From NCBI GenBank assembly GCA_000004985.1, contig GG738849.1: a stretch of 64,000 nucleotides of DNA. One strand, given 5' to 3'. Below the pieces are notes generated by a model that worked only from the letters and a program-made list of their open reading frames with translations, searched no databases and was not told the DNA's origin. The first letter of the stretch is position 1, and each line of letters opens with the position of its first letter. Positions 19,850 through 48,480 of this stretch are shown piece after piece. The DNA comes from Naegleria gruberi (Eukaryota). The position numbers were made by a program, and so were the translations under genes.

Positions 19850-21271
19850 ATATAATAGAAGGAAGTTTTTAATTTAATGATTGGTTGGAGTAACACGAAT
19901 TGGGTGAGCTTCAGTATTGAAAACAAACTTGTCAATTGGAATGATATGTTTTGGAGAGAATAATAAATAGAGATATTTCAATGTTTCAGCCAAGAAGAAT
20001 GATTGTTGGAAATCGTCGTGAACTGGAGACTGTGTTGCTACATTTCGAAGTCCACTGTAACCACCAGAGGCAATTTTGCATTTTGATTCAATTGCTTGGA
20101 AAATCTTCCATCCCCATTCTCTGTACTTTTCATCACCAGTAACTCTGTACATGATGAAAATACTTTCAACTGTTTCTGGTCTTAATAAATAAGTAGAGAC
20201 ACCAGGGTTAAATTTACCGCTGGCAGTGTCAAAGTGGAAAGTTTCTGGTCCAATTCCTGAAGGCATTTGAGCATAAGTTTCATAACATGTTCTTGTGAAT
20301 TCAGCACCAGTTTCAATTTGACGCTTATTTGAGATTTGGAATCCAGGAGTGGAAACATTGAAATAACCACCCAATGCAAACATACCAGCTGCAAAACATG
20401 CCAAATGGTCAACCTTGTGATGAGCTCTACCTTCGTATTCTGCAACATAGGTATATCCTTGGTTGGATTTGATAACCATATTCTCAAAGATACCCTTCAA
20501 AGTTGCCATGTACATGAATCTATATTTTTCAGCACCCTTTGTTCCTCTATTCAACAACCATTGTTTCAATAAATATTCATAGAATGAATCTCCCAAAGCA
20601 CCCAAAGAAACATAGTTAGAACACCAACTTCCAGAAGTTGGAGATATTTTGAGTGGATATAATCCATTGTCTGGCTTTTTGCTTTCCATGATATCCATAA
20701 CCTTAGTTACAGCATTATGATACTTCATATCCCCAGTCAATTCACTCAATCTTCTGAATTCCAATTGAAGAGAACCAAGTTCGCTCAAAATTGCACAATT
20801 ATTAGCCCAAGCAAATGTCTTTTTGGATCCAGTCTTCAAGTTAATTTCCGAATATGGAATACCAGTTGGTGAAGAGAAGGCAGGAAGTAATCTGTCAGCC
20901 ATATCTTTGGCTTTTTCGAGGAAGATCTTTTCCTTTGTCAAATCATACGCACTCACAAAACCTCCAACAACACGAATAGTTGTTTCAAAAACACTAATTC
21001 CACCATTAATTGTTGAAAATGAAGGCATGTCATTCTTAACATAATTCAATGATTTTTCATATTGTTGTTTCAAACCCATGATAACCATTGTATCAAGTGA
21101 ATCAATCAGTGTCATACCAAAACCTTTTGAGCTAGCAATCCAATTATGATAACCTTTGCTTACTGGTCTATATTCATCCTTTCCCCAAACATGTTCATAT
21201 CCTTTGAATGCGTGAATGAATGCATCTCTTACAGCCTTTCTTTTTTCGTTTGCACTGTCACTCATAAAATC
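19850..21271. repeat. Inverted segmental duplication, arm A (GH47 catalytic domain plus about 20 nt of 3' flank)
   Basis: The reverse complement of about 19850-21271 matches 47081-48505 with long perfectly identical tracts (including the last 170 nt of the CDS and the stop) interspersed with diverged patches. Confidence 0.8.
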
Positions 21272-21871
21272 ATTCTCATAATCGTCAATAGTCATCTGTT
21301 CTGGTTGATAAAGATAAGATTTTGGTCCAACTTTTAATTCCTCAGTCTTTGGTTGTTGAACAACTTCTATATGTTTTTCAACTATTGTTTCCTTTGTTGC
21401 TTCCTTAATTTTGACTTGTTGAATTGGTTGTTTTACATCCCTTGTTGGTGGTGCTTGTTGTTCTTGTTTTTGAGGTGTTTGTGGAGGTTTTGGAATTGGA
21501 GGAGGAACATTTGGTGGAGTTCTCTTTTCTTCTCTTGTTGTTTTAATAATTTCAATTTCATCATGCAACTCCAAATCTTCAATTCTTGGAAGAATTTCAA
21601 AGTTTGACTCTCTAGTATTACCAATTGAAAGAGTTGAAAAGAGGAAGATGAAAAGAACAATTGTTCCGAAGAGGATTAAAGTGTACTTCCAAAAATTACT
21701 AATATCTCCACTAGACTCACTCAGTTTCGAGGAAAAACCCTTCTTGTTATAAACTCCCAGAGGATCCAAATCTGCATCCTTAGAAACTGTTAATAATTGA
21801 GGGTTTACATTTGATCTTTTTATCAAATTTTTCCCCTCCTCAATCCCACTAAAATCGGATGATGATGACAT
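19874..21871 (-). CDS. Glycoside hydrolase family 47 alpha-1,2-mannosidase (type II membrane topology), paralog A
   Basis: 665 aa: cytosolic tail, transmembrane segment [21 protein letters not shown], Pro-rich stem, then a GH47 catalytic domain ([77 protein letters not shown]). The 3' two-thirds is near-identical at nucleotide level to the gene at 46594..48480. Confidence 0.9.
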   Translation of the reverse strand: [665 protein letters not shown]

Positions 21872-31299: not shown

Positions 31300-31695
31300 A
31301 TGTCTGAAATTGTATATTCTGTTATGGAGTACTTGTTGGATGAACAATTCGGTGATGCTGTAGGTAAATTAAAAACATGATTCTAAATAATGGATGATAA
31401 GGTAGAAGAGTTCGGTAATAAGCACTGTGATATCTTTGAAATTGATGAAGAAGAACAAAAATTGGAATATACAAATGTATACAACAAATTCGTAAAGCTT
31501 TTTGAATCCAAAGTTGAAGAATTGCTTAAACAAAAGGGAGTCACACCTCAAGAATTTTATATTGAATGTAAAAGATTGTCTGAGGAAGAAAACGATCAAG
31601 AAATTGTAGAGTTCTTGTTAGCACTTTCAGATTATCAAGTATTTTACAACATGATGAAGGAAATCAAGTTGAGAAAACTAGGAAAACAACAATAA
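31300..31695 (+). CDS. ARL2-binding protein (BART)-like; two exons (31300..31359 or ..31363, 31402 or 31406..31695)
   Basis: The spliced product MSEIVYSVMEYLLDEQFGDAVEEFGNKHCDIFEIDEEEQKLEYTNVYNKFVKLFESKVEELLKQ...LALSDYQVFYNMMKE matches ARL2BP (FDAVVGYLEDIIMDDEFQ...EDTEENKLIYTPIFNEYISLVEKYIEEQLL...FTDFLAFKEMFLD). The intron is 42 nt (GTAGGT or GTAAAT donor, TTCTAAAT branch, AAG or TAG acceptor); both options give the same protein. An ATGGCGCCAT palindrome lies 60 nt upstream. Confidence 0.6.
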
Positions 31696-32113
31696 AACCA
31701 TTGTATTTTTAATAATTTATTATCATCATTGAGTAAGGAATTAGAGTAGTACGTTTATTGAATAAATGAAAAGAAATTAAAGGAATGGTACAGAATATTC
31801 TGTAACTTCTCACTCTATCTCAAAGTTGTAGAATGTTGTTATCAAAGTCTACTAAGGGACGTTTGTAACAAAATTTTCATTCATCAACCTGTCATCCCAG
31901 AGTGATATCAATGTGTCGTTGATGCAGTAATGTATGCCTTGTTGATTCCGATACTGTACAATTAGAAGTAATCAAAATTAATAGGTGTCACTTCTGATGA
32001 ATTAACAAAGCACAACAACCTTCCACCACTATTGCATTACCAATTCCGATACTCTTTTAAATTATAGTAAACGTACAAGTGTTGGATCAGGTCTTGACCC
32101 AACACTACTTTCC

Positions 32114-32347
32114 TCATGATCCTCCAAAACAATTTGGACCTTGTTTAGGTGGTCCTTTCACTCTTCCAATTGTTTTTCCTCCCGATCCTGAATAACCTCC
32201 AGATTGACCACCTTTGGATCCCTTGTTTTGTGGATTGAGTGAAGAGAAGAACAAGACAAGGAAGGATATAAATGCAGCCCACCAATACTTGATGGTTCCT
32301 ATCAATCCCCTAGATGATTGAATTTTACCACTACTGTCAATATACAT
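32114..32347 (-). CDS. Small (about 77 aa) single-transmembrane protein with a Gly/Ser-rich C-terminal tail; unassigned
   Basis: First ATG of ORF 32114..32491 at 32345-32347. MYIDSSGKIQSSRGLIGTIKYWWAAFISFLVLFFSSLNPQNKGSKGGQSGGYSGSGGKTIGRVKGPPKQGPNCFGGS. No family recognised. Confidence 0.3.
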   Translation of the reverse strand: MYIDSSGKIQSSRGLIGTIKYWWAAFISFLVLFFSSLNPQNKGSKGGQSGGYSGSGGKTIGRVKGPPKQGPNCFGGS

Positions 32348-32543
32348 TTTCCGAAGATCAGTTGTTGTATTGATAGTGAAGCGACAAAGAATGATCCCTT
32401 GGACAAAATTACGTATTTTTTTTCTATTTTTAAATTTTATTTTTGATTTTAAATTAAACACACATAAAGTTTTGATTAAGAAATTTTGCATTTGTTTTTA
32501 TTCTCATAGATTATGATATAAATGTTAATTTTTTGAAAAATAT

Positions 32544-35500
32544 TTAATTGGTATTGTTGAAATTTCGTTGTAATAAAAGTAAGGAATCATAACTCTTTAC
32601 ACTCTTCATGGTGCTAATCTTTTCATTATCTTTTGGAATCTGGAATGGTTTTTGTTGATCTTTGTACAAGGCACTATTTACAGGGAGGGGAGAATAAATA
32701 CCCAAATCTTCGCTGTCTCTTCGTGGAGAAAGGAGGAGGGGAGTGAGGCCACTTGTACTACCCTTTCTTTCCTTAAAATGTGGTTGATTTGAATGGTAGA
32801 CTTCATTATTTACAGGGCTAGAGCTGGAATTTTCCATTCTCTTTAGGATGAATCGGTGGAATTCATCAACAAATCTTTCCTGTCTTCTATTCTCAATAAC
32901 TCTGGTACCACGAGCAAGTTTGACAGCTTCCATAGCTTTGGCAGAGTCTAACAAGAGTGGTTGACGAAGTAATAGTACACAACTAGCAAGAGTACCTGAT
33001 CTTCCCAAACCAGAAACACTCTAAAAATTGTTTGTAAAAATTCAAAGCAAATATACAACATACCACAATTACAACATCTTCACCTTTCTTATCCAATGCT
33101 TCCTTAATCCATTCACACAATAGCAGTGTGTAATTCATTGGAGGAGGATGTCTTTGTTGGACTGGTAACATTCTTGTTTCTATACCCAAATTAGTTGCCT
33201 CTCTCAACAAGTTACCAGAGAGGTGTTCCAATTCGTCTTGTGTACTTAAAACAACGAGCTTTTTAACATTATTCTTTTGTAACACTTTCAAATCATTGAC
33301 CATAACACCACCATGTGAAGGACGACCAGGAATGATTGAGATACCAAGTCTTCCATACTTTTTCTTTTTTGGAGTTGCACCATTTTCTGAGTTTTGAGTA
33401 TTGTTAATTTCTCTCTTTTCAGCTGCTTGTTGATCGAGCATCTTTAAATTAATCCAATCAATGTGGTACTTGTCATTTCTGAATGCCTTTCTTTCAATCT
33501 TTTGAGCCAGAGCACATGCTGTTGCAAGGGCCCAAGCTCTTTGATAAAGAGTTAAAGAGTTCAATGTTGCCATATGAAGAGTGTATCTAAGAAGAACAAT
33601 ATCTAATTGAACTGGGTTACGATCTCCTCGGACCAATCTCTTTGTAATGCTTCTCAATTCAGCAACAGTCTCCCAAGCTCTCTTGAGCTTCTCTGATTTC
33701 AAACCAGGAAGTGTTGGAGGTAATGGTTCAGCCAAGTCTTTGACAGAAACAAGTTCCTTAGTGATTAATAAAGCCTCTTCGAGTTCCTTTTCATTTTCCA
33801 ATACAGTATACTCAAAGAGAACATCAGTCTCAAACTTGACCACATCTTTCAATATGTGAGTTCTCTCTGTATATTCAAAATCTATGAGCCATACATTTTC
33901 ATTGCTGTCTAGAATTACATTTCTTCCATTCAAATCGCCATGTACAAATGAAACGTAGTGGAATGATTTTGCTAAATATCCTTGCTTGATCTTTGGAATG
34001 GAATCTCTCAAAAAGTGTACAATATTCCTCACTCTAAATCCTCCTGGGAATATCAAATACTTTTCTTCACCATGAATTGTTGGCATTGTAACGGTTGAAC
34101 TAGAGCTATTGGTAAATACATTGGTACCATTTGAGGTTGATGTTGCAGAGATGGGTGTTGAGATTTCCTCAACATCCGAAACAGTAGGAGAATTATCTTG
34201 GGTAAGTTTTGGAACTTGTCTTGGCTCAAAGAATGAGCAATCTCTCAGTTCTGCAAACATTTTAAGTGTTCGATCTCGGACAGCATCTGGATTATCTGTT
34301 CCTCCAGTATGCCAGGCCCAGCCCTTTCCATTGAAATCATACGTTTCGAACAAGTCAATTTGTTCCAAAACTGCTGCATCATAGAATCTTCCCAAAACGC
34401 CATAAAAAACTCGATGGAGAACAGATTTGATAGTTTGCATACTTCCTCCACTAATGTACAACTCTCTGAATGAGCCTGCTGATGGTGTCTTGGGTTGCTT
34501 CTTACTTGCAAATGGAGAGAGTGGTGATTTAGGAGAAAGTAAATCTGAATCTGATGAATATTGAAAATCATCCTCAAACATGGAAGCATATGCAAATTTG
34601 ATACCAGCTCTATCTTTCAATTCAGTAAAACCACGAATTTGAGGAGCATTATTACCTAAAATTTCCTCAACCTTTTCAAAATTGACTCTTTCTCTTGTGA
34701 TGGGACCTCTCCTTCCTATTTTCAAAATTGAAGTTGCTTGAACATGTCCCATACTATCCTTTGAGTTGACTTTAAATACCCATGAGCCTGAATACCCTCC
34801 TGAAAGAGGAGTAAACATTACATCAGTGCTATCATGGTACAATAAACAAATAATTTCCTTATCTACATCCGAGATTTTGTTAATATCATCACCCAGAGTT
34901 TTCCAATGAATACATGGAATAATACGATGCTCCTCGATTGACTCGTTTGCATCATCTAGTTCCATATCATTATCAGAGGATGGTATTGACAAGTCAAATG
35001 ATGTTGAAGTGGGAGATGGTGATATTTGTTTGAAGAAAAAGGCTCCACTACTCACAATGGAACTACTAGGAGTCTTTTTCCACCAAAATGGTATCAGCCA
35101 TTCTTGAAAGTCACATAAACTGTAAAATATTGAAACACTAAAGTACCTTTCTAATTGTTGTAAGCTAGCAAAGTGTTGATGTCTGGAACGACTTGCTGTC
35201 AAGGCACTACAAGTACCAAGTATTTGAGCAAACCTTCTATATCTTGTGAAGAGCTCATAAAATAAATATTGAATTGTTGATTCTGTCCATACACCAATAG
35301 CTCCAATTTTAACATTGAGCTTTTTTTGAGTACCATTTGTTAAATTTTCTTGGTCGAGTTGTTTTTGTTTTTTCTGAATTGCGTTCTGTATTTTTTCTTC
35401 TAGATCTGTATTGAAAAATGCATTAACACTTGTAATGTTTACATAGGATTCATTCTCACGATTGGGCACATCTTTATCCAAATTTAATACCAAGTTGGCA

Positions 35501-36825
35501 CCTGATGTTCCCTTAACAGAAAATAACCCATTACAAATATACTTGTCAGGAGAATCATCCTCACTAGTGGAGTCTGTCTTTTTACAAACCAAGTGATCAA
35601 TTTCATTCCAAAAACGAACATGAATTATTTCTAAATGAGCTGATGATTGTCTTCTGGCCCAATTCATAAAGTTTTTCAGTGGACCACTTTTATAATCACT
35701 TCCTAATAAACGTTGGCTTTCAGGTTTGCCAACATGCATAAATGTGCTCGAGTCAAAATCGAGAGAGCCCGAGTAATTTGTTCCCACTTGTTCAGGAAAC
35801 TTTCCTATAAAATCATTTTGTAAACAATTCGTAATTAATATACTAAAATCCTCAATATCCGAATTTTCCAAATTATTGTTATTTGAATTTTGTTCATAGA
35901 TATGTTGTGATTTGGAAGTTGAACTTTCCAACAATGAATTATTGGCCATAATATTATTATTATACCTTGATAAACTTTCCGATAATGAATTATTAACAAA
36001 TTTCAATAGTGATTGATTTGTTATAGTAGCTGCTGTATTACTATTTTTTGAATATTGGTGATGATTGCCTTCTCGTTGCTGTTCTTGTCTACTAGAAAAA
36101 AAGTCTTTTTCACCCATTAACGGCGATTCATTTTTTTGATTCGTTGGTGTTGGTGTGTTGTTATGGTGAACATTCTTGATTGGAGCAGATGTTTGAAAAT
36201 TCAACAAGTTTTCATCTCCGTCCGACATTTGTGTGAGTTGTTTGGAGTTTAATACACAGTATTGGTCCTTCTCACTCAATGAATGAGGAGGATTGAGAAG
36301 AGAAGAAGTATTGAATGATGCTGTTGCTGCGGTAAAATTTGTTAGATTGGAAGAATTAATTGTGCTCTCGAGGTGATTATTTGGTTGTATTGAATGTGGT
36401 TGTTGTTGCTGATTGAACATCCAACGAGTGCCGTGTTGTCTTAAATTAATGCTGCTACTACTATTGCTCTTATTACTTCTTTCCGATGATGAGAGAGATC
36501 GATGATGAAATATATTATTGTGATGAGGTGTTGTTGAGATGGTTGGAGTGAGGCAATCATGATTGTAGTTGTTAGTTGGTGGCAGTGGTTCAGATATTCT
36601 ACGGAAAGAAGGGGAACCATTTGTATGATGATGCTTACTTGGTGATGATGATGATGTTTTAGATTCAACACTTGTGGTAGCAAAGAGTTTTGTTTGTTGT
36701 TCTTTCATGACACTTATTTTCAATGATTCTTTCTGAGCTTTTCCAATACTATGTGTTTGGAAATGATTTATTAGAGATGATGACATTGGATTCTCTTGTG
36801 GTTTCTGTTGATGAAGGTTTTGCAT
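32544..36825 (-). CDS. Large S/N/Q-rich protein with a central kinase-like domain (actin-fragmin-kinase / APH-choline-kinase-like fold) and a C-terminal CDKN3/KAP-like dual-specificity-phosphatase-like domain; two exons (36825..33064, 33020..32544)
   Basis: Kinase-like motifs YVSFVHGDLNGRNVILDSNENVWLIDFEYTERTHILKD (HGDL..N and DFEY, like APH/ChoK/AFK). The phosphatase-like end ...GEDVVIVV|SVSGLGRSGTLASCVLLL resembles KAP VHCYGGLGRSCLVAACLLL. A 43-nt intron (GTATGTTGTATATTTGC...TTTTTAG) joins ORFs 32983..36825 and 32544..33008; the unspliced read-through gives nonsense (VVCCIFALNFYKQFLECFWFGKIRYSC*). Confidence 0.7.
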
Positions 36826-37195
36826 GTTTTTTCTTCTGTTCTAGTAGGTGATGATTCTTCAACTGTTGTTGATCTGGGAAGGAAGTCCTGATTCAACGAT
36901 TGACAGATGAATTTGCAACATTTGTATTATTTATTAATTACAATCTTTATCTTATTTCTGTAAACAATTTCTTAAAGTAGAGTTTCATGTTTCTGATGTA
37001 TTTGAAATCGACTTTACAGTTTAGTTGTTCAACAATTTTCATTTATTGGAAATTATTAAACTAAAACCAAAGCATACTCAAATTTAATTTTCAATTTTTA
37101 TAACTCTTTTAACTAGTTTTATTAAATCATATTACCATATTTTATAACATTTTATTATTAATAAATATTTCTTTTTGAATTCTAACCACAAAAAA

Positions 37196-46593: not shown

Positions 46594-48480
46594 ATGAGTC
46601 AACTGAATGATGATGCTTCACCAGTGATGCACTCATCACAAAGTAGTTCTTCTGTTGGAGACCCTGAATTGGGTCAACCTACCAGTAGAAGCACAAGTGT
46701 TGCAACATCTACATCTACACAAAAACGAGGTGTGCAAACTTTTGTTGAAAACCAATCTTTTAATGCTTCTATTACGGAACCGGTTGGTAATTATACAAAA
46801 ACAACAAAAAGTTCAACCTCCAACCTGGCATCCTTCCTCAGAAGAAATAGAAAATTAATAGGATTTATAGTATTATTATTTATTTGCTTTTTGGTGTTTT
46901 TGTTTGTGAAATTTGATATTTTACATTTCTCTCCTGATAAACAAGTTGAATCGGAGCATATCGATTTAATAGATCCTCTTGACGATACGGCATCTGTAGA
47001 TAGAGATGACCATACAATAATTCCTTCATCCAAACCATCTTGGAAGAGGCCAGAATTAATGACCATCGACGATTACCAAAGTGATTTTATGAGTGACAGT
47101 GCAAACGAAAAAAGAAAGGCTGTAAGAGATGCATTCATTCACGCATTCAAAGGATATGAAAATGTTTGGGGAAAGGATGAATATAAACCAATCAGCAAGA
47201 GTTTCCACAATTGGATTCAAAATTCTAATGGTTTTGGTATGACACTGATTGATTCACTTGATACAATGGTTATCATGGGTTTGAAACAACAATATGAAAA
47301 ATCATTGAATTATATTAAGAATGACATGCCTTCATTTTCAACAATTAATGGTGGAATTAGTGTTTTTGAAACAACTATTCGTGTTGTTGGAGGTTTTGTG
47401 AGTGCGTATGATTTGACAAAGGAAAAGATCTTCCTCGAAAAAGCCAAAGATATGGCTGACAGATTACTTCCTGCCTTCTCTTCGCCAACTGGTATTCCAT
47501 ATTCGGAAATTAACTTGAGAACTGGTGAGAAGAAAACTTTCGCCTGGGCTGGTAATTGTTGTCCTCTCAGTGAGTTTGGTACTCTTCAATTGGAATTCAG
47601 AAGATTGAGTGAATTGACTGGTGATGAAAAATATAACAAATTAGTTACTAAGATTATGGATGTCATGTTTAAGAATAAGCCAGCCAATGCCTTGTATCCA
47701 ATCAAATTCCATCCTGATAATGGAAATTGGTGCTCCAATCATGTCTCATTGGGTGCTTTGGGTGATTCATTCTATGAATATTTATTGAAACAATGGTTGT
47801 TGAATAGAGGAACAAAGGGTGCTGAGAGGTATCGTGAACTCTATTTGGAAACTGTTAAAGGAATATTTGATCACATGGTTATCAAATCCAATCAAGGCTA
47901 TACCTATGTTGCTGAGTACAATGGCTCTCCATTCCACAAGGTTGACCATTTGGCATGTTTTGCAGCTGGTATGTTTGCATTGGGTGGTTATTTCAATATT
48001 TCCACTCCTGAATCCCCAATCTCAAATAAGCGTCAAATTGAAGTTGGTGCTGAATTCACAAGAACATGTTATGAAACTTATGCTCAAATGCCTTCAGGAA
48101 TTGGACCAGAAACTTTCCACTTTGATCCATCAAGTGGAAGATTCAGGCCTGGTGTCTCTACTTATTTATTAAGACCAGAAACAGTTGAAAGTATTTTCAT
48201 CATGTACAGAGTTACTGGTGATGAAAAGTACAGAGAATGGGGATGGAAGATTTTCCAAGCAATTGAATCAAAATGCAAAATTGCTTCTGGTGGTTACAGT
48301 GGCTTGCACAATGTAGGTGTTGCTAACCCTACTCAAGATGATTTCCAACAATCATTCTTCTTGGCTGAAACATTGAAATATCTCTATTTATTATTCTCTC
48401 CAAAACATATCATTCCAATTGACAAGTTTGTTTTCAATACTGAAGCTCACCCAATTCGTGTTACTCCAACCAATCATTAA
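46594..48480 (+). CDS. Glycoside hydrolase family 47 alpha-1,2-mannosidase, paralog B (type II membrane protein)
   Basis: 628 aa with transmembrane segment IGFIVLLFICFLVFLFVKF and a GH47 catalytic domain. The last 41 aa are identical to paralog A, with long 100 percent nucleotide tracts against the reverse complement of 19874-21271. Confidence 0.9.
   Translation: MSQLNDDASPVMHSSQSSSSVGDPELGQPTSRSTSVATSTSTQKRGVQTFVENQSFNASITEPVGNYTKTTKSSTSNLASFLRRNRKLIGFIVLLFICFLVFLFVKFDILHFSPDKQVESEHIDLIDPLDDTASVDRDDHTIIPSSKPSWKRPELMTIDDYQSDFMSDSANEKRKAVRDAFIHAFKGYENVWGKDEYKPISKSFHNWIQNSNGFGMTLIDSLDTMVIMGLKQQYEKSLNYIKNDMPSFSTINGGISVFETTIRVVGGFVSAYDLTKEKIFLEKAKDMADRLLPAFSSPTGIPYSEINLRTGEKKTFAWAGNCCPLSEFGTLQLEFRRLSELTGDEKYNKLVTKIMDVMFKNKPANALYPIKFHPDNGNWCSNHVSLGALGDSFYEYLLKQWLLNRGTKGAERYRELYLETVKGIFDHMVIKSNQGYTYVAEYNGSPFHKVDHLACFAAGMFALGGYFNISTPESPISNKRQIEVGAEFTRTCYETYAQMPSGIGPETFHFDPSSGRFRPGVSTYLLRPETVESIFIMYRVTGDEKYREWGWKIFQAIESKCKIASGGYSGLHNVGVANPTQDDFQQSFFLAETLKYLYLLFSPKHIIPIDKFVFNTEAHPIRVTPTNH

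What the first reader, a model, noticed from the sequence alone, without database searches (positions are those of the whole stretch)
33000..33080. Kinase-like domain fused to a KAP-like phosphatase domain in which the catalytic Cys position appears to be Ser
Using the only GT..AG pair available (43-nt intron, 33021-33063), the junction reads ...DVVIVV|SVSGLGRSGTLASCVLLL. The CX5R phosphatase signature (KAP: HCYGGLGRS) is therefore S-V-S-G-L-G-R, a substrate-trapping or pseudophosphatase configuration. A one-nucleotide-shifted junction would give C-V-S-G-L-G-R, but that requires non-GT/AG boundaries. So either a kinase-like domain is paired with a dead phosphatase, or the splicing here is non-canonical, or there is a sequence error at the junction.
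Basis: partly seen in the sequence, partly recalled or inferred. Interest (0 to 1): 0.5.

Follow-up and report, generated by a model that had tools for sequence, protein, structure and literature searches.

The report
Conserved dead phosphatase fused to kinase
This Naegleria gruberi gene really does encode serine where a KAP-like phosphatase domain should have its catalytic cysteine, and the change is an old, conserved feature of a protist branch of a bacterial kinase-phosphatase fusion protein, not a splicing or sequencing artefact.

Summary
The gene lies on the minus strand: exon 1 is 36825-33064, a 43-nt GTATGT...TTTTTAG intron is 33063-33021, and exon 2 is 33020-32544.

The spliced 1412-aa product is identical to the annotated Naegleria gruberi protein XP_002681824.1 (NAEGRDRAFT_63037). 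Relatives encode V-S-x-[S/A]-G-L-G-R in uninterrupted DNA (Willaertia, Acrasis, four metagenome relatives) or in transcriptome-derived proteins (Percolomonas, Heterolobosea BB2, Luapelamoeba). A second N. gruberi-like isolate has the same junction sequence.

- **Ser-type proteins:** 18 of 18 have Ser, none has the preceding His, and only 3 keep the general-acid Asp. GxGR is invariant. They form one clade.
- **Cys-type proteins:** 105 relatives, the named ones bacterial, keep HC and Asp.
- **Ser codons:** both families are used (AGT and TCN).
- **Selection:** the domain is under purifying selection.
- **Fold and relatives:** the phosphatase-like domain is closest to KAP/CDKN3. The kinase-like domain is Pfam TCAD9, APH-like, with intact catalytic motifs. 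An N-terminal isochorismatase-like domain lacks its nucleophile Cys in the whole family.

Best reading: an MK-STYX-style pseudophosphatase, probably a phosphate-binding regulatory module. This is a new member of a known kind, of moderate-to-low interest.

The parts
32544..36825 (-). Whole gene (N. gruberi NAEGRDRAFT_63037, 1412 aa). Exon 1 is 36825-33064, the intron is 33063-33021, and exon 2 is 33020-32544 including the stop codon.
   Evidence: ORF list. The spliced translation is identical to P0209 / XP_002681824.1.
33021..33063 (-). 43-nt phase-0 intron (GTATGT...TTTTTAG) placed directly before the Ser codon. It is present in the second N. gruberi-like isolate and absent from all other relatives whose DNA was read.
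   Evidence: typical intron for this window; same intron in L012, with one SNP at 33056; no intron at this site in L001, L002, L006, L007, L008 or L011.
32994..33066 (-). Degenerate P-loop V1254-S1255-V-S-G-L-G-R1261-S-G, interrupted by the intron. Ser1255 (AGT, 33020-33018) replaces the nucleophile Cys. Val1254 (33066-33064) replaces His. Arg1261 is at 33002-33000.
   Evidence: The register against the bacterial HCxGGLGR and against KAP is shown.
33139..33168 (-). Equivalent of the general-acid loop, LPVQQRHPPP (aa 1220-1229). The bacterial P-I-x-D-Q Asp is Gln here.
   Evidence: Alignments. Asp is present in 102 of 105 Cys-type and 3 of 18 Ser-type sequences.
32847..33474 (-). KAP/CDKN3-like dual-specificity-phosphatase fold with its N-terminal linker helix (aa ~1118-1312).
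   Evidence: AF2 pLDDT 91.3. Foldseek best hit is 1fpz KAP, E 4.8e-11, TM 0.87. The profile against PDB sequences gives 1fpz at E 9e-35. Single-sequence Pfam hits: PF22785 27.9 bits (curated cutoff 27); PF22784 and CDKN3 fall below their cutoffs.
33475..34908 (-). TCAD9 protein-kinase-like (APH-like) domain, aa ~640-1117. Motifs: Gly-rich loop LSGGYSGSWVF (34806-34774), Lys in SILKIG (34731-34714), catalytic loop HGDLNGRN (33942-33919) and metal-binding IDFE (33891-33874).
   Evidence: Pfam PF19974, E 2.6e-38, 132.7 bits. The catalytic-loop and IDF/IDY motifs are kept in nearly all homologs that cover them, and the key residues are invariant in A4. The AF2 model of the W. magna ortholog has aminoglycoside and ethanolamine kinases as nearest PDB folds.
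35071..35850 (-). Isochorismatase/nicotinamidase-like domain, aa ~326-585, without the family's nucleophile Cys. GVWTESTI (35295-35272) lies where isochorismatases have T-x-x-C-V.
   Evidence: Profile A3 against PDB: 3hb7 isochorismatase hydrolase at E 6.9e-9. The aligned motif there is GVWTNVCV, against GVWTEAKV in the bacterial relatives and GVWTESTI here.
35851..36825 (-). Low-complexity N-terminal extension rich in Ser, Asn, Gln and His (aa 1-325). It is absent from the bacterial relatives.
   Evidence: Translation. Only 25.8 % identity to W. magna over the part that aligns.

Best explanation
The locus is the annotated Naegleria gruberi gene NAEGRDRAFT_63037. It encodes a three-domain protein: a Cys-less isochorismatase-like domain, an apparently active APH-like kinase domain (Pfam TCAD9), and a KAP/CDKN3-like phosphatase-fold domain.

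**Shown.** The canonical 43-nt intron gives V-S-V-S-G-L-G-R, so the catalytic Cys is genuinely Ser. A single clade of protist relatives shares this state and has also lost the adjacent His. Most members, including this one, have lost the general-acid Asp as well. The clade keeps the phosphate-cradling G-L-G-R and is under purifying selection. Relatives with the same architecture, the named ones bacterial, keep H-C and Asp.

**Inferred from established PTP enzymology.** Cys-to-Ser PTPs are catalytically dead but still bind phospho-substrates, as in the KAP C140S-phosphoCDK2 complex. MK-STYX, with HC changed to FS, is a natural example. On that basis the domain is a pseudophosphatase.

**Inferred mechanism.** The domain no longer reverses the reaction of the neighbouring kinase. 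Instead it acts as a non-catalytic phosphate or phospho-ligand binding module that holds, senses or presents the kinase's phosphorylated product (or a phosphorylated partner), and so regulates or localises the kinase.
For: - **Sequence and splice enumeration:**
- **Identity to the public model:**
- **Relatives without an intron at this site encode Ser directly:** W. magna TCC; Acrasis AGT; metagenome relatives TCC, TCA and AGT; L011 reads GTG AGT GTT with no intron.
- **Transcriptome-derived proteins also have Ser:** Percolomonas, Heterolobosea BB2 and Luapelamoeba.
- **Independent isolate:** same junction sequence.
- **Column counts, Ser-type:** Ser 18/18, His 0/18, Asp 3/18, G and R of GxGR 18/18.
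- **Column counts, Cys-type:** His 99/105, Asp 102/105.
- **Single origin:** the Ser-type sequences are monophyletic in a neighbour-joining tree of 84 sequences.
- **Selection:** dN for the PTP-like domain is 0.25, against 0.7-0.8 in the tails, with dS saturated.
- **Fold:** confident PTP fold, with KAP the nearest solved structure.
- **Kinase:** motifs intact and fold APH-like.
- **MK-STYX precedent:** PMC2873733.
Against: - No activity, binding or transcript data exist for this protein.
- Strict invariance of Ser across both codon families is more than a merely dead site would need, so a chemical role for the hydroxyl cannot be excluded.
- Three early-branching Ser-type members still have the Asp.
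- The kinase substrate is unknown, so 'binds the kinase product' is inference.
- The relative orientation of the domains could not be examined with these tools.
Confidence: 0.75

Rival explanations
1. Non-canonical splicing restores the Cys. A 40-nt GT..GA intron at 33059-33020 would give VVIVVCVSGLGR and an active CX5R phosphatase.
For: The read-through frame contains TGT TGT just inside the intron, so a Cys codon is physically close by.
Against: - It needs a GA acceptor and a weak GTTGTA donor, while a consensus GTATGT...TTTTTAG pair is present and typical for this genome.
- It adds one residue relative to every relative, bacterial ones included.
- Relatives without the intron encode Ser at this position, and L011 reads GTG AGT GTT contiguously.
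- The His and the general-acid Asp would still be missing.
Confidence: 0.02
2. A sequencing or assembly error at the junction hides a real Cys codon.
For: None beyond the a priori possibility. AGT and TGT differ by one base.
Against: - An independent metagenome contig (ERR1078381, L012, 98.9 % identical over 4.6 kb) has the same exon ends and the same AGT. Its only nearby difference is an intronic SNP at 33056.
- All 18 Ser-type relatives have Ser.
Confidence: 0.01
3. The domain is still an enzyme that uses Ser1255 as nucleophile, or carries out different phosphoryl-transfer chemistry. Alternatively, Ser1255 is itself a phospho-acceptor written by the fused kinase, giving a stable mimic of the phospho-enzyme intermediate.
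For: - Ser is invariant in 18 of 18 sequences across deep divergence and is encoded by both AGY and TCN codons.
- GxGR is intact.
- Some members keep the Asp.
Against: - The His that tunes the nucleophile is lost in all members, and the general acid in 15 of 18.
- The P-loop Gly at +2 is Ser or Ala in 16 of 18.
- Engineered Cys-to-Ser PTPs are inactive substrate traps; 1fpz and 1fq1 are themselves such a KAP mutant.
- MK-STYX became active when His and Cys were introduced at its active site (PMC2873733).
Confidence: 0.08
4. The domain is a decaying relic with no function, left over after a bacterial gene was acquired.
For: Three catalytic residues are lost. The protein has acquired long low-complexity tails.
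Against: - The domain is 68 % identical between Naegleria and Willaertia, with dN 0.25. That is close to the isochorismatase-like domain (0.27) and far below the tails (0.7-0.8).
- PGR, S-x-x-G-L-G-R and R-x-x-R motifs are invariant or near-invariant across the clade.
- The AF2 fold is confident.
Confidence: 0.05

Closest known systems
MK-STYX / STYXL1 (animal DUSP-family pseudophosphatase)
   Same: A dual-specificity-phosphatase fold in which the signature His-Cys is naturally replaced by a hydrophobic residue plus Ser (FS there, VS here). The P-loop Arg is kept, and the protein is retained as a non-catalytic regulator (PMC2873733).
   Different: - It belongs to a different DSP subfamily (MKP-like with a CH2/rhodanese domain, against KAP-like here).
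- MK-STYX is not fused to a kinase.
- Here the general-acid Asp is also lost, and the domain's relatives that keep the Cys include named bacterial proteins.
KAP / CDKN3, and its engineered C140S trap bound to phospho-CDK2 (PDB 1fpz, 1fq1)
   Same: It is the nearest solved structure by both sequence profile (E 9e-35) and fold (TM 0.87). The crystallised form carries the same Cys-to-Ser change. It is a phosphatase fold that docks onto a kinase.
   Different: - Natural KAP has HCYGGLGRS and is active.
- It acts in trans on CDK2 pThr160, whereas this domain is covalently fused to an APH-like kinase, not a CDK-like one.
- For the window protein alone, the Pfam CDKN3 hit is below the family cutoff (15.2 against 20.7 bits).
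Bacterial isochorismatase-like + TCAD9 + DSP-PTPase proteins (for example Leptospira neocaledonica P0016, L. koniambonensis P0020, and P0014 from Candidatus Dormibacteria)
   Same: The same three-domain order, 27-41 % identity over the query region, the same kinase motifs, and the same Cys-less isochorismatase-like domain.
   Different: - The bacterial proteins keep H-C-x-G-G-L-G-R and the P-I-x-D-Q general acid.
- They are about 770-790 aa with no low-complexity tails.
- The kinase metal-binding motif is DFF rather than DFE.
EGG-4 / EGG-5 and STYX (pseudophosphatases that bind phosphorylated kinases or substrates); stated from my own knowledge, not tested here
   Same: The concept of a dead PTP-fold domain acting as a phospho-dependent binder or regulator of a kinase.
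   Different: They are unrelated subfamilies, act in trans, and replace the Cys with different residues (Gly in STYX).

Membership tests
Active Cys-based PTP / dual-specificity phosphatase | PTP alpha/beta fold with the P-loop at the C-terminal end of the central strand | tested here: met
   AF2 pLDDT 91.3. The top 50 Foldseek PDB hits are all PTP or DSP folds.
Active Cys-based PTP / dual-specificity phosphatase | Nucleophilic Cys in (H)CX5R | tested here: not met
   The position is Ser1255, preceded by Val.
Active Cys-based PTP / dual-specificity phosphatase | General-acid Asp on the loop before the P-loop | tested here: not met
   The bacterial P-I-x-D-Q aligns with P-V-Q-Q-R, so the Asp is Gln here.
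Active Cys-based PTP / dual-specificity phosphatase | P-loop Arg and glycine cradle | tested here: met
   G-L-G-R1261 is present and invariant in the clade.
KAP/CDKN3-like subfamily (Pfam PF05706 and relatives PF22784, PF22785) | Sequence match above the family threshold | tested here: inconclusive
   Window protein alone: PF22785 27.9 bits (cutoff 27), PF22784 23.4 (27), CDKN3 15.2 (20.7). The family profile A1 hits KAP 1fpz at E 9e-35 over 170 positions.
KAP/CDKN3-like subfamily (Pfam PF05706 and relatives PF22784, PF22785) | KAP is the nearest solved fold | tested here: met
   1fpz and 1fq1 rank 1-3, E about 5e-11, TM 0.83-0.87 normalised by target length.
Pseudophosphatase (MK-STYX type) | PTP fold with the nucleophile Cys naturally replaced, conserved among relatives | tested here: met
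   Ser in 18 of 18 clade members. The clade is monophyletic.
Pseudophosphatase (MK-STYX type) | Retained under purifying selection | tested here: met
   dN is 0.25 against saturated dS. The domain is 68 % identical to W. magna, against 26-36 % in the tails.
Pseudophosphatase (MK-STYX type) | No phosphatase activity, but phospho-ligand or partner binding | not testable with these tools
   Needs recombinant protein assays.
TCAD9 protein-kinase-like family (Pfam PF19974) | Profile match above the gathering score | tested here: met
   132.7 bits against a cutoff of 40, E 2.6e-38.
TCAD9 protein-kinase-like family (Pfam PF19974) | Intact kinase catalytic residues: Gly-rich loop, beta-3 Lys, HxDxxxxN and the metal-binding Asp | tested here: met
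   LSGGYSGSWVF, SILKIG, HGDLNGRN and IDFE are present. The key residues are invariant in A4.
TCAD9 protein-kinase-like family (Pfam PF19974) | APH / choline-kinase-like fold | tested here: met
   Model of the W. magna ortholog, 76 % identical to the window protein over the modelled segment. Best PDB folds are APH(3')-Ia and ethanolamine kinase, E about 3e-6, TM about 0.55 by target; the resemblance is modest.
Isochorismatase / nicotinamidase-like hydrolases (PF00857) | Sequence relationship to the family | tested here: met
   Profile A3 against PDB: 3hb7 at E 6.9e-9 and the nicotinamidase 1ilw at E 7.4e-6.
Isochorismatase / nicotinamidase-like hydrolases (PF00857) | Catalytic Cys in T-x-x-C-V | tested here: not met
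   TESTI in the window protein and TEAKV in the bacterial relatives align with TNVCV and TEYCV.
vWA-MoxR 'ternary' conflict systems (Kaur et al. 2020), from which TCAD9 takes its name | Linkage to vWA, MoxR and VMAP genes | tested here: not met
   Two bacterial loci (L009, L010) show no such neighbours. The eukaryotic genes sit among ordinary housekeeping genes. Only two bacterial loci were sampled.

The most novel reading that the evidence does not exclude
The invariant Ser is chemically used, not a dead placeholder. One version is a PTP-fold enzyme that works with a Ser nucleophile. The more intriguing version is that the fused APH-like kinase phosphorylates Ser1255, creating a stable phospho-enzyme mimic that switches the protein. 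Either would be a new mode of PTP-fold function, arising when a bacterial self-opposing kinase/phosphatase fusion was adopted by amoeboid protists.
Probability: 0.07. Interest if true: 0.75.

Novelty: new member of a known kind. Interest (0 to 1): 0.33.

Why it matters
Pseudophosphatases are an established class of signalling regulators. This adds a separate case that appears undescribed: none of the three literature searches that bear on it found it. It is KAP-like, permanently fused to an apparently active APH-like kinase and to a second domain that has also lost its nucleophile.

The case comes with a natural before-and-after series. The Cys-type relatives, the named ones bacterial, have H-C and Asp. 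Some early-branching protist forms have Ser plus Asp. Naegleria and Willaertia have Ser without Asp. That series makes the route from enzyme to pseudoenzyme directly testable by reversion mutants.

For genome annotation, the practical message is that the public N. gruberi model is correct and the domain should not be labelled an active tyrosine phosphatase.

Tried and rejected
- **Splice enumeration:** I listed every in-frame GT/GC-AG and AT-AC intron around the junction. None yields CX5R.
- **Operon clues in bacteria:** the neighbourhoods of two relatives are not conserved. A Band_7 gene lies upstream in Leptospira only. They gave no functional lead.
- **Kinase domain against PDB sequences:** only weak hits confined to the catalytic-loop region (RNase L, GCN2, RIO2; E 6e-4 or weaker), so I relied on the fold search instead.
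- **Organism identification:** an exact look-up of a neighbouring GH47 ORF found nothing. Identification came instead from the cluster of P0064.
- **Taxon names:** a look-up for eight further Ser-type representatives returned none.
- **Literature:** searches for TCAD9, for 'pseudophosphatase' with 'Naegleria', and for the accession numbers found no paper on this protein.
- **SECIS scan:** an Rfam scan beside the neighbouring SelK-like ORF found nothing.
- **Domain orientation:** I could not examine it because model coordinates and PAE are not exposed.
Full report
**What is in the sequence.**
The feature lies on the minus strand. A 1280-codon ORF (36825-32983) runs into a stop 27 codons after ...GEDVVIV, and a second ORF in another frame continues with ...GLGRSGTLASC.... 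Removing 33063-33021 (43 nt, GTATGT...TTTTTAG, phase 0) joins them into a 1412-aa protein whose junction reads GEDVVIV|SVSGLGRSG.

The quoted peptide has one Val too many. The statement that this is the only GT..AG pair is not exact. Four GT donors (33075, 33072, 33066, 33063) are in frame with the acceptor at 33021. All of them give Ser, because AGT (33020-33018) is the first codon of exon 2. The remaining in-frame pairs either delete the P-loop or, as with a GC..AG pair at 33048-33021, keep Ser with no CX5R spacing. The only way to obtain Cys is a 40-nt GT..GA intron at 33059-33020, giving VVIVVCVSGLGR.

Other ORF-joining introns in the window are 40-61 nt. Their donors are GTAAGT, GTATGT, GTAGGT or GTGAGT, and their acceptors end in AG. 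The 43-nt intron is therefore ordinary for this genome.

**Identity of the locus.**
The spliced protein is identical, residue for residue, to P0209. That is Naegleria gruberi 'predicted protein' XP_002681824.1, also known as EFC49080.1, NAEGRDRAFT_63037 and UniProt D2V2L1. The window is therefore N. gruberi, and the public model uses the same intron. No paper in the searchable library mentions the accession.

**Is the Ser real?**
Three independent lines say yes.

1. *Relatives without the intron.* The Willaertia magna gene (68 % identical over the query region) is intronless and encodes VVIVSMSGLGRSG with a TCC Ser codon. Acrasis kona encodes CIVSASGLGRCG with AGT in an uninterrupted stretch. 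Three eukaryotic metagenome contigs encode IVSLSGLGR (TCC, TCA) and IVSCSGLGR (AGT). A closer metagenome relative, L011, reads GTT GTG AGT GTT TCG GGA TTG GGT AGA. This matches, at the junction, what the spliced N. gruberi mRNA should read (GTG AGT GTT), with no intron.
2. *Transcriptome-derived proteins.* Percolomonas sp. WS, Heterolobosea sp. BB2 and the amoebozoan Luapelamoeba hula also have Ser at this position.
3. *An independent isolate.* A metagenome contig 98.9 % identical over 4.6 kb (L012) has the same donor, acceptor and AGT codon. Its only nearby difference is an intronic SNP at 33056.

The canonical junction is also colinear with every relative. Bacterial G-E-D-V-V-V-H-C aligns residue for residue with G-E-D-V-V-I-V-S, whereas the Cys-restoring junction would insert a residue. 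Non-canonical splicing and sequence error are therefore very unlikely.

**What the protein is.**
Pfam gives a strong TCAD9 hit (PF19974, 132.7 bits). TCAD9 is listed among protein-kinase-like families in a 2026 preprint. Pfam also gives weak hits to the DSP-PTPase families PF22785, PF22784 and CDKN3 at aa 1175-1305. Database searches recover a family of about 770-790-aa proteins whose named members are bacterial: Leptospira, Myxococcales, Planctomycetota and Candidatus Dormibacteria. Their architecture is isochorismatase-like + TCAD9 + DSP-PTPase.

- **Kinase domain.** The kinase catalytic-loop and IDF/IDY motifs are kept in nearly all homologs that cover them, and the key residues are invariant in alignment A4. 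They are a Gly-rich loop, Lys in SILKIG, HGDLNGRN and IDFE/IDFF. An AF2 model of the W. magna kinase domain (pLDDT 78) has aminoglycoside and ethanolamine kinases as nearest solved folds. This fits the remark by Kaur et al. (PMC7159879) that the APH-like kinases they saw in ternary conflict systems may act on small molecules.
- **C-terminal domain.** It models confidently (pLDDT 91.3). By fold and by profile it is closest to KAP/CDKN3, with 1fpz at TM 0.87 and profile E 9e-35. The crystallised 1fpz and 1fq1 proteins are themselves the engineered Cys-to-Ser trap.
- **N-terminal globular domain (aa ~326-585).** It is isochorismatase/nicotinamidase-like (3hb7, E 6.9e-9). The family's nucleophile Cys (TNVCV) is Lys in the bacterial proteins and Thr in Naegleria.

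**The active-site pattern across the family.**

| Position | Ser-type (18 distinct sequences) | Cys-type (105 sequences) |
|---|---|---|
| Nucleophile | Ser 18/18 | Cys 105/105 (by selection) |
| Preceding His | 0/18 (Val in 11) | 99/105 |
| General-acid Asp | 3/18 | 102/105 |
| P-loop Gly at +2 | Ser or Ala in 16/18 | Gly 97/105 |
| G and R of GxGR | 18/18 | 105/105 |

The three Ser-type sequences that keep the Asp are Percolomonas, BB2 and one metagenome fragment. In a neighbour-joining tree of 84 sequences covering the kinase C-lobe plus the PTP domain, the 12 Ser-type sequences form one clade with no Cys-type inside it. This points to a single ancient conversion. The Ser is encoded by both AGY and TCN codons, even between the close pair Naegleria (AGT) and Willaertia (TCC).

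Between those two species, synonymous sites are saturated. Non-synonymous divergence of the PTP-like domain is 0.25, close to the isochorismatase-like domain (0.27). The kinase domain is at 0.18 and the low-complexity tails at 0.7-0.8. The domain is therefore under purifying selection.

**How it most likely works.**
*Shown:* the domain has the PTP fold and an intact phosphate cradle. It lacks the nucleophile Cys, the His and the general acid, and this state is conserved.

*From established enzymology:* Cys-to-Ser PTPs do not turn over but still bind phospho-substrates. MK-STYX is a natural HC-to-FS pseudophosphatase that became active when His and Cys were introduced at its active site (PMC2873733).

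*Inferred:* the Cys-type (bacterial) form pairs a kinase with an opposing phosphatase in one polypeptide. In the protist clade the phosphatase has become a non-catalytic phosphate or phospho-ligand binding module that retains, senses or presents the kinase's product or a phosphorylated partner. The strict invariance of Ser leaves a small chance that the hydroxyl is used chemically, either as a nucleophile or as a phospho-acceptor for the fused kinase.

**Comparison and novelty.**
The closest known kind is the MK-STYX-type pseudophosphatase. The closest structure is KAP. The closest relatives are the bacterial three-domain proteins. It fails membership as an active Cys-based DSP, because the Cys and Asp tests are not met. 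It passes the fold, selection and conservation tests for a pseudophosphatase. Activity and binding could not be tested.

No paper describing this protist clade turned up. It is a new member of a known kind. It is a neat pseudoenzyme case with a built-in evolutionary series, but it is not a surprise to specialists, and the gene model is already public and correct. I score interest at about 0.33.

Noticed in passing
window 32108-32350, minus strand (just downstream of the focal gene): A small ORF reads MYIDSSGKIQ...NCFGGS-TGA-GK-TAG. With the TGA read as Sec (Cys was substituted for the search), it matches Pfam SelK_SelG (PF10961, E 6.9e-5, 23.8 bits against a cutoff of 23.3). It is a candidate selenoprotein K with an in-frame UGA two codons before the stop. 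An Rfam scan of 31600-32600 found no SECIS element at E <= 1.
   Followed up: partly
window 35272-35295, minus strand (aa 511-518), and all relatives examined: The isochorismatase/nicotinamidase-like domain lacks that family's nucleophile Cys. It is Thr here (GVWTESTI) and Lys in the bacterial relatives (GVWTEAKV). Two of the three domains in the Naegleria protein therefore lack their canonical nucleophile.
   Followed up: partly
window 33021-33063; loci L001, L002, L006, L007, L008, L011, L012: The intron at the Ser codon is found only in N. gruberi and the near-identical isolate L012. It is absent from Willaertia, Acrasis and four metagenome relatives, so it looks like a recent intron gain placed exactly before the signature codon.
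   Followed up: yes
L012 (ENA metagenome ERR1078381, contig k127_377858) against window 32400-37000: An N. gruberi-like isolate in an environmental metagenome is 98.9 % identical over 4.6 kb. Its prokaryote-style gene call reads through the intron, giving the truncated 1274-aa protein P0064.
   Followed up: yes
P0004 / L007 8001-10007: The catalytic loop reads HGDLNGKTFSNILTTIGRNILVD. This is an 11-residue insert inside HGDLNGxN and is probably an unspliced in-frame 33-nt intron in a prokaryote-style gene call on a eukaryotic metagenome contig.
   Followed up: no
P0059 (902 aa; Logan/ENA, contig 584 kb): This relative has an N-terminal calponin-homology domain (PF00307), then the isochorismatase-like and TCAD9 domains, and no phosphatase domain at all. 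It is a second way the family has dispensed with phosphatase activity.
   Followed up: no
window 31300-31695, plus strand: The neighbouring gene encodes an ARL2-binding BART-like protein (PF11527, E 2.4e-23). It has one short intron near its 5' end (about 31363-31402).
   Followed up: partly
window 19874-21871 (minus) and 46594-48480 (plus): Two paralogous glycosyl hydrolase family 47 (alpha-mannosidase) genes lie about 25 kb apart. Both have near-full-length Pfam matches (E about 1e-157).
   Followed up: no
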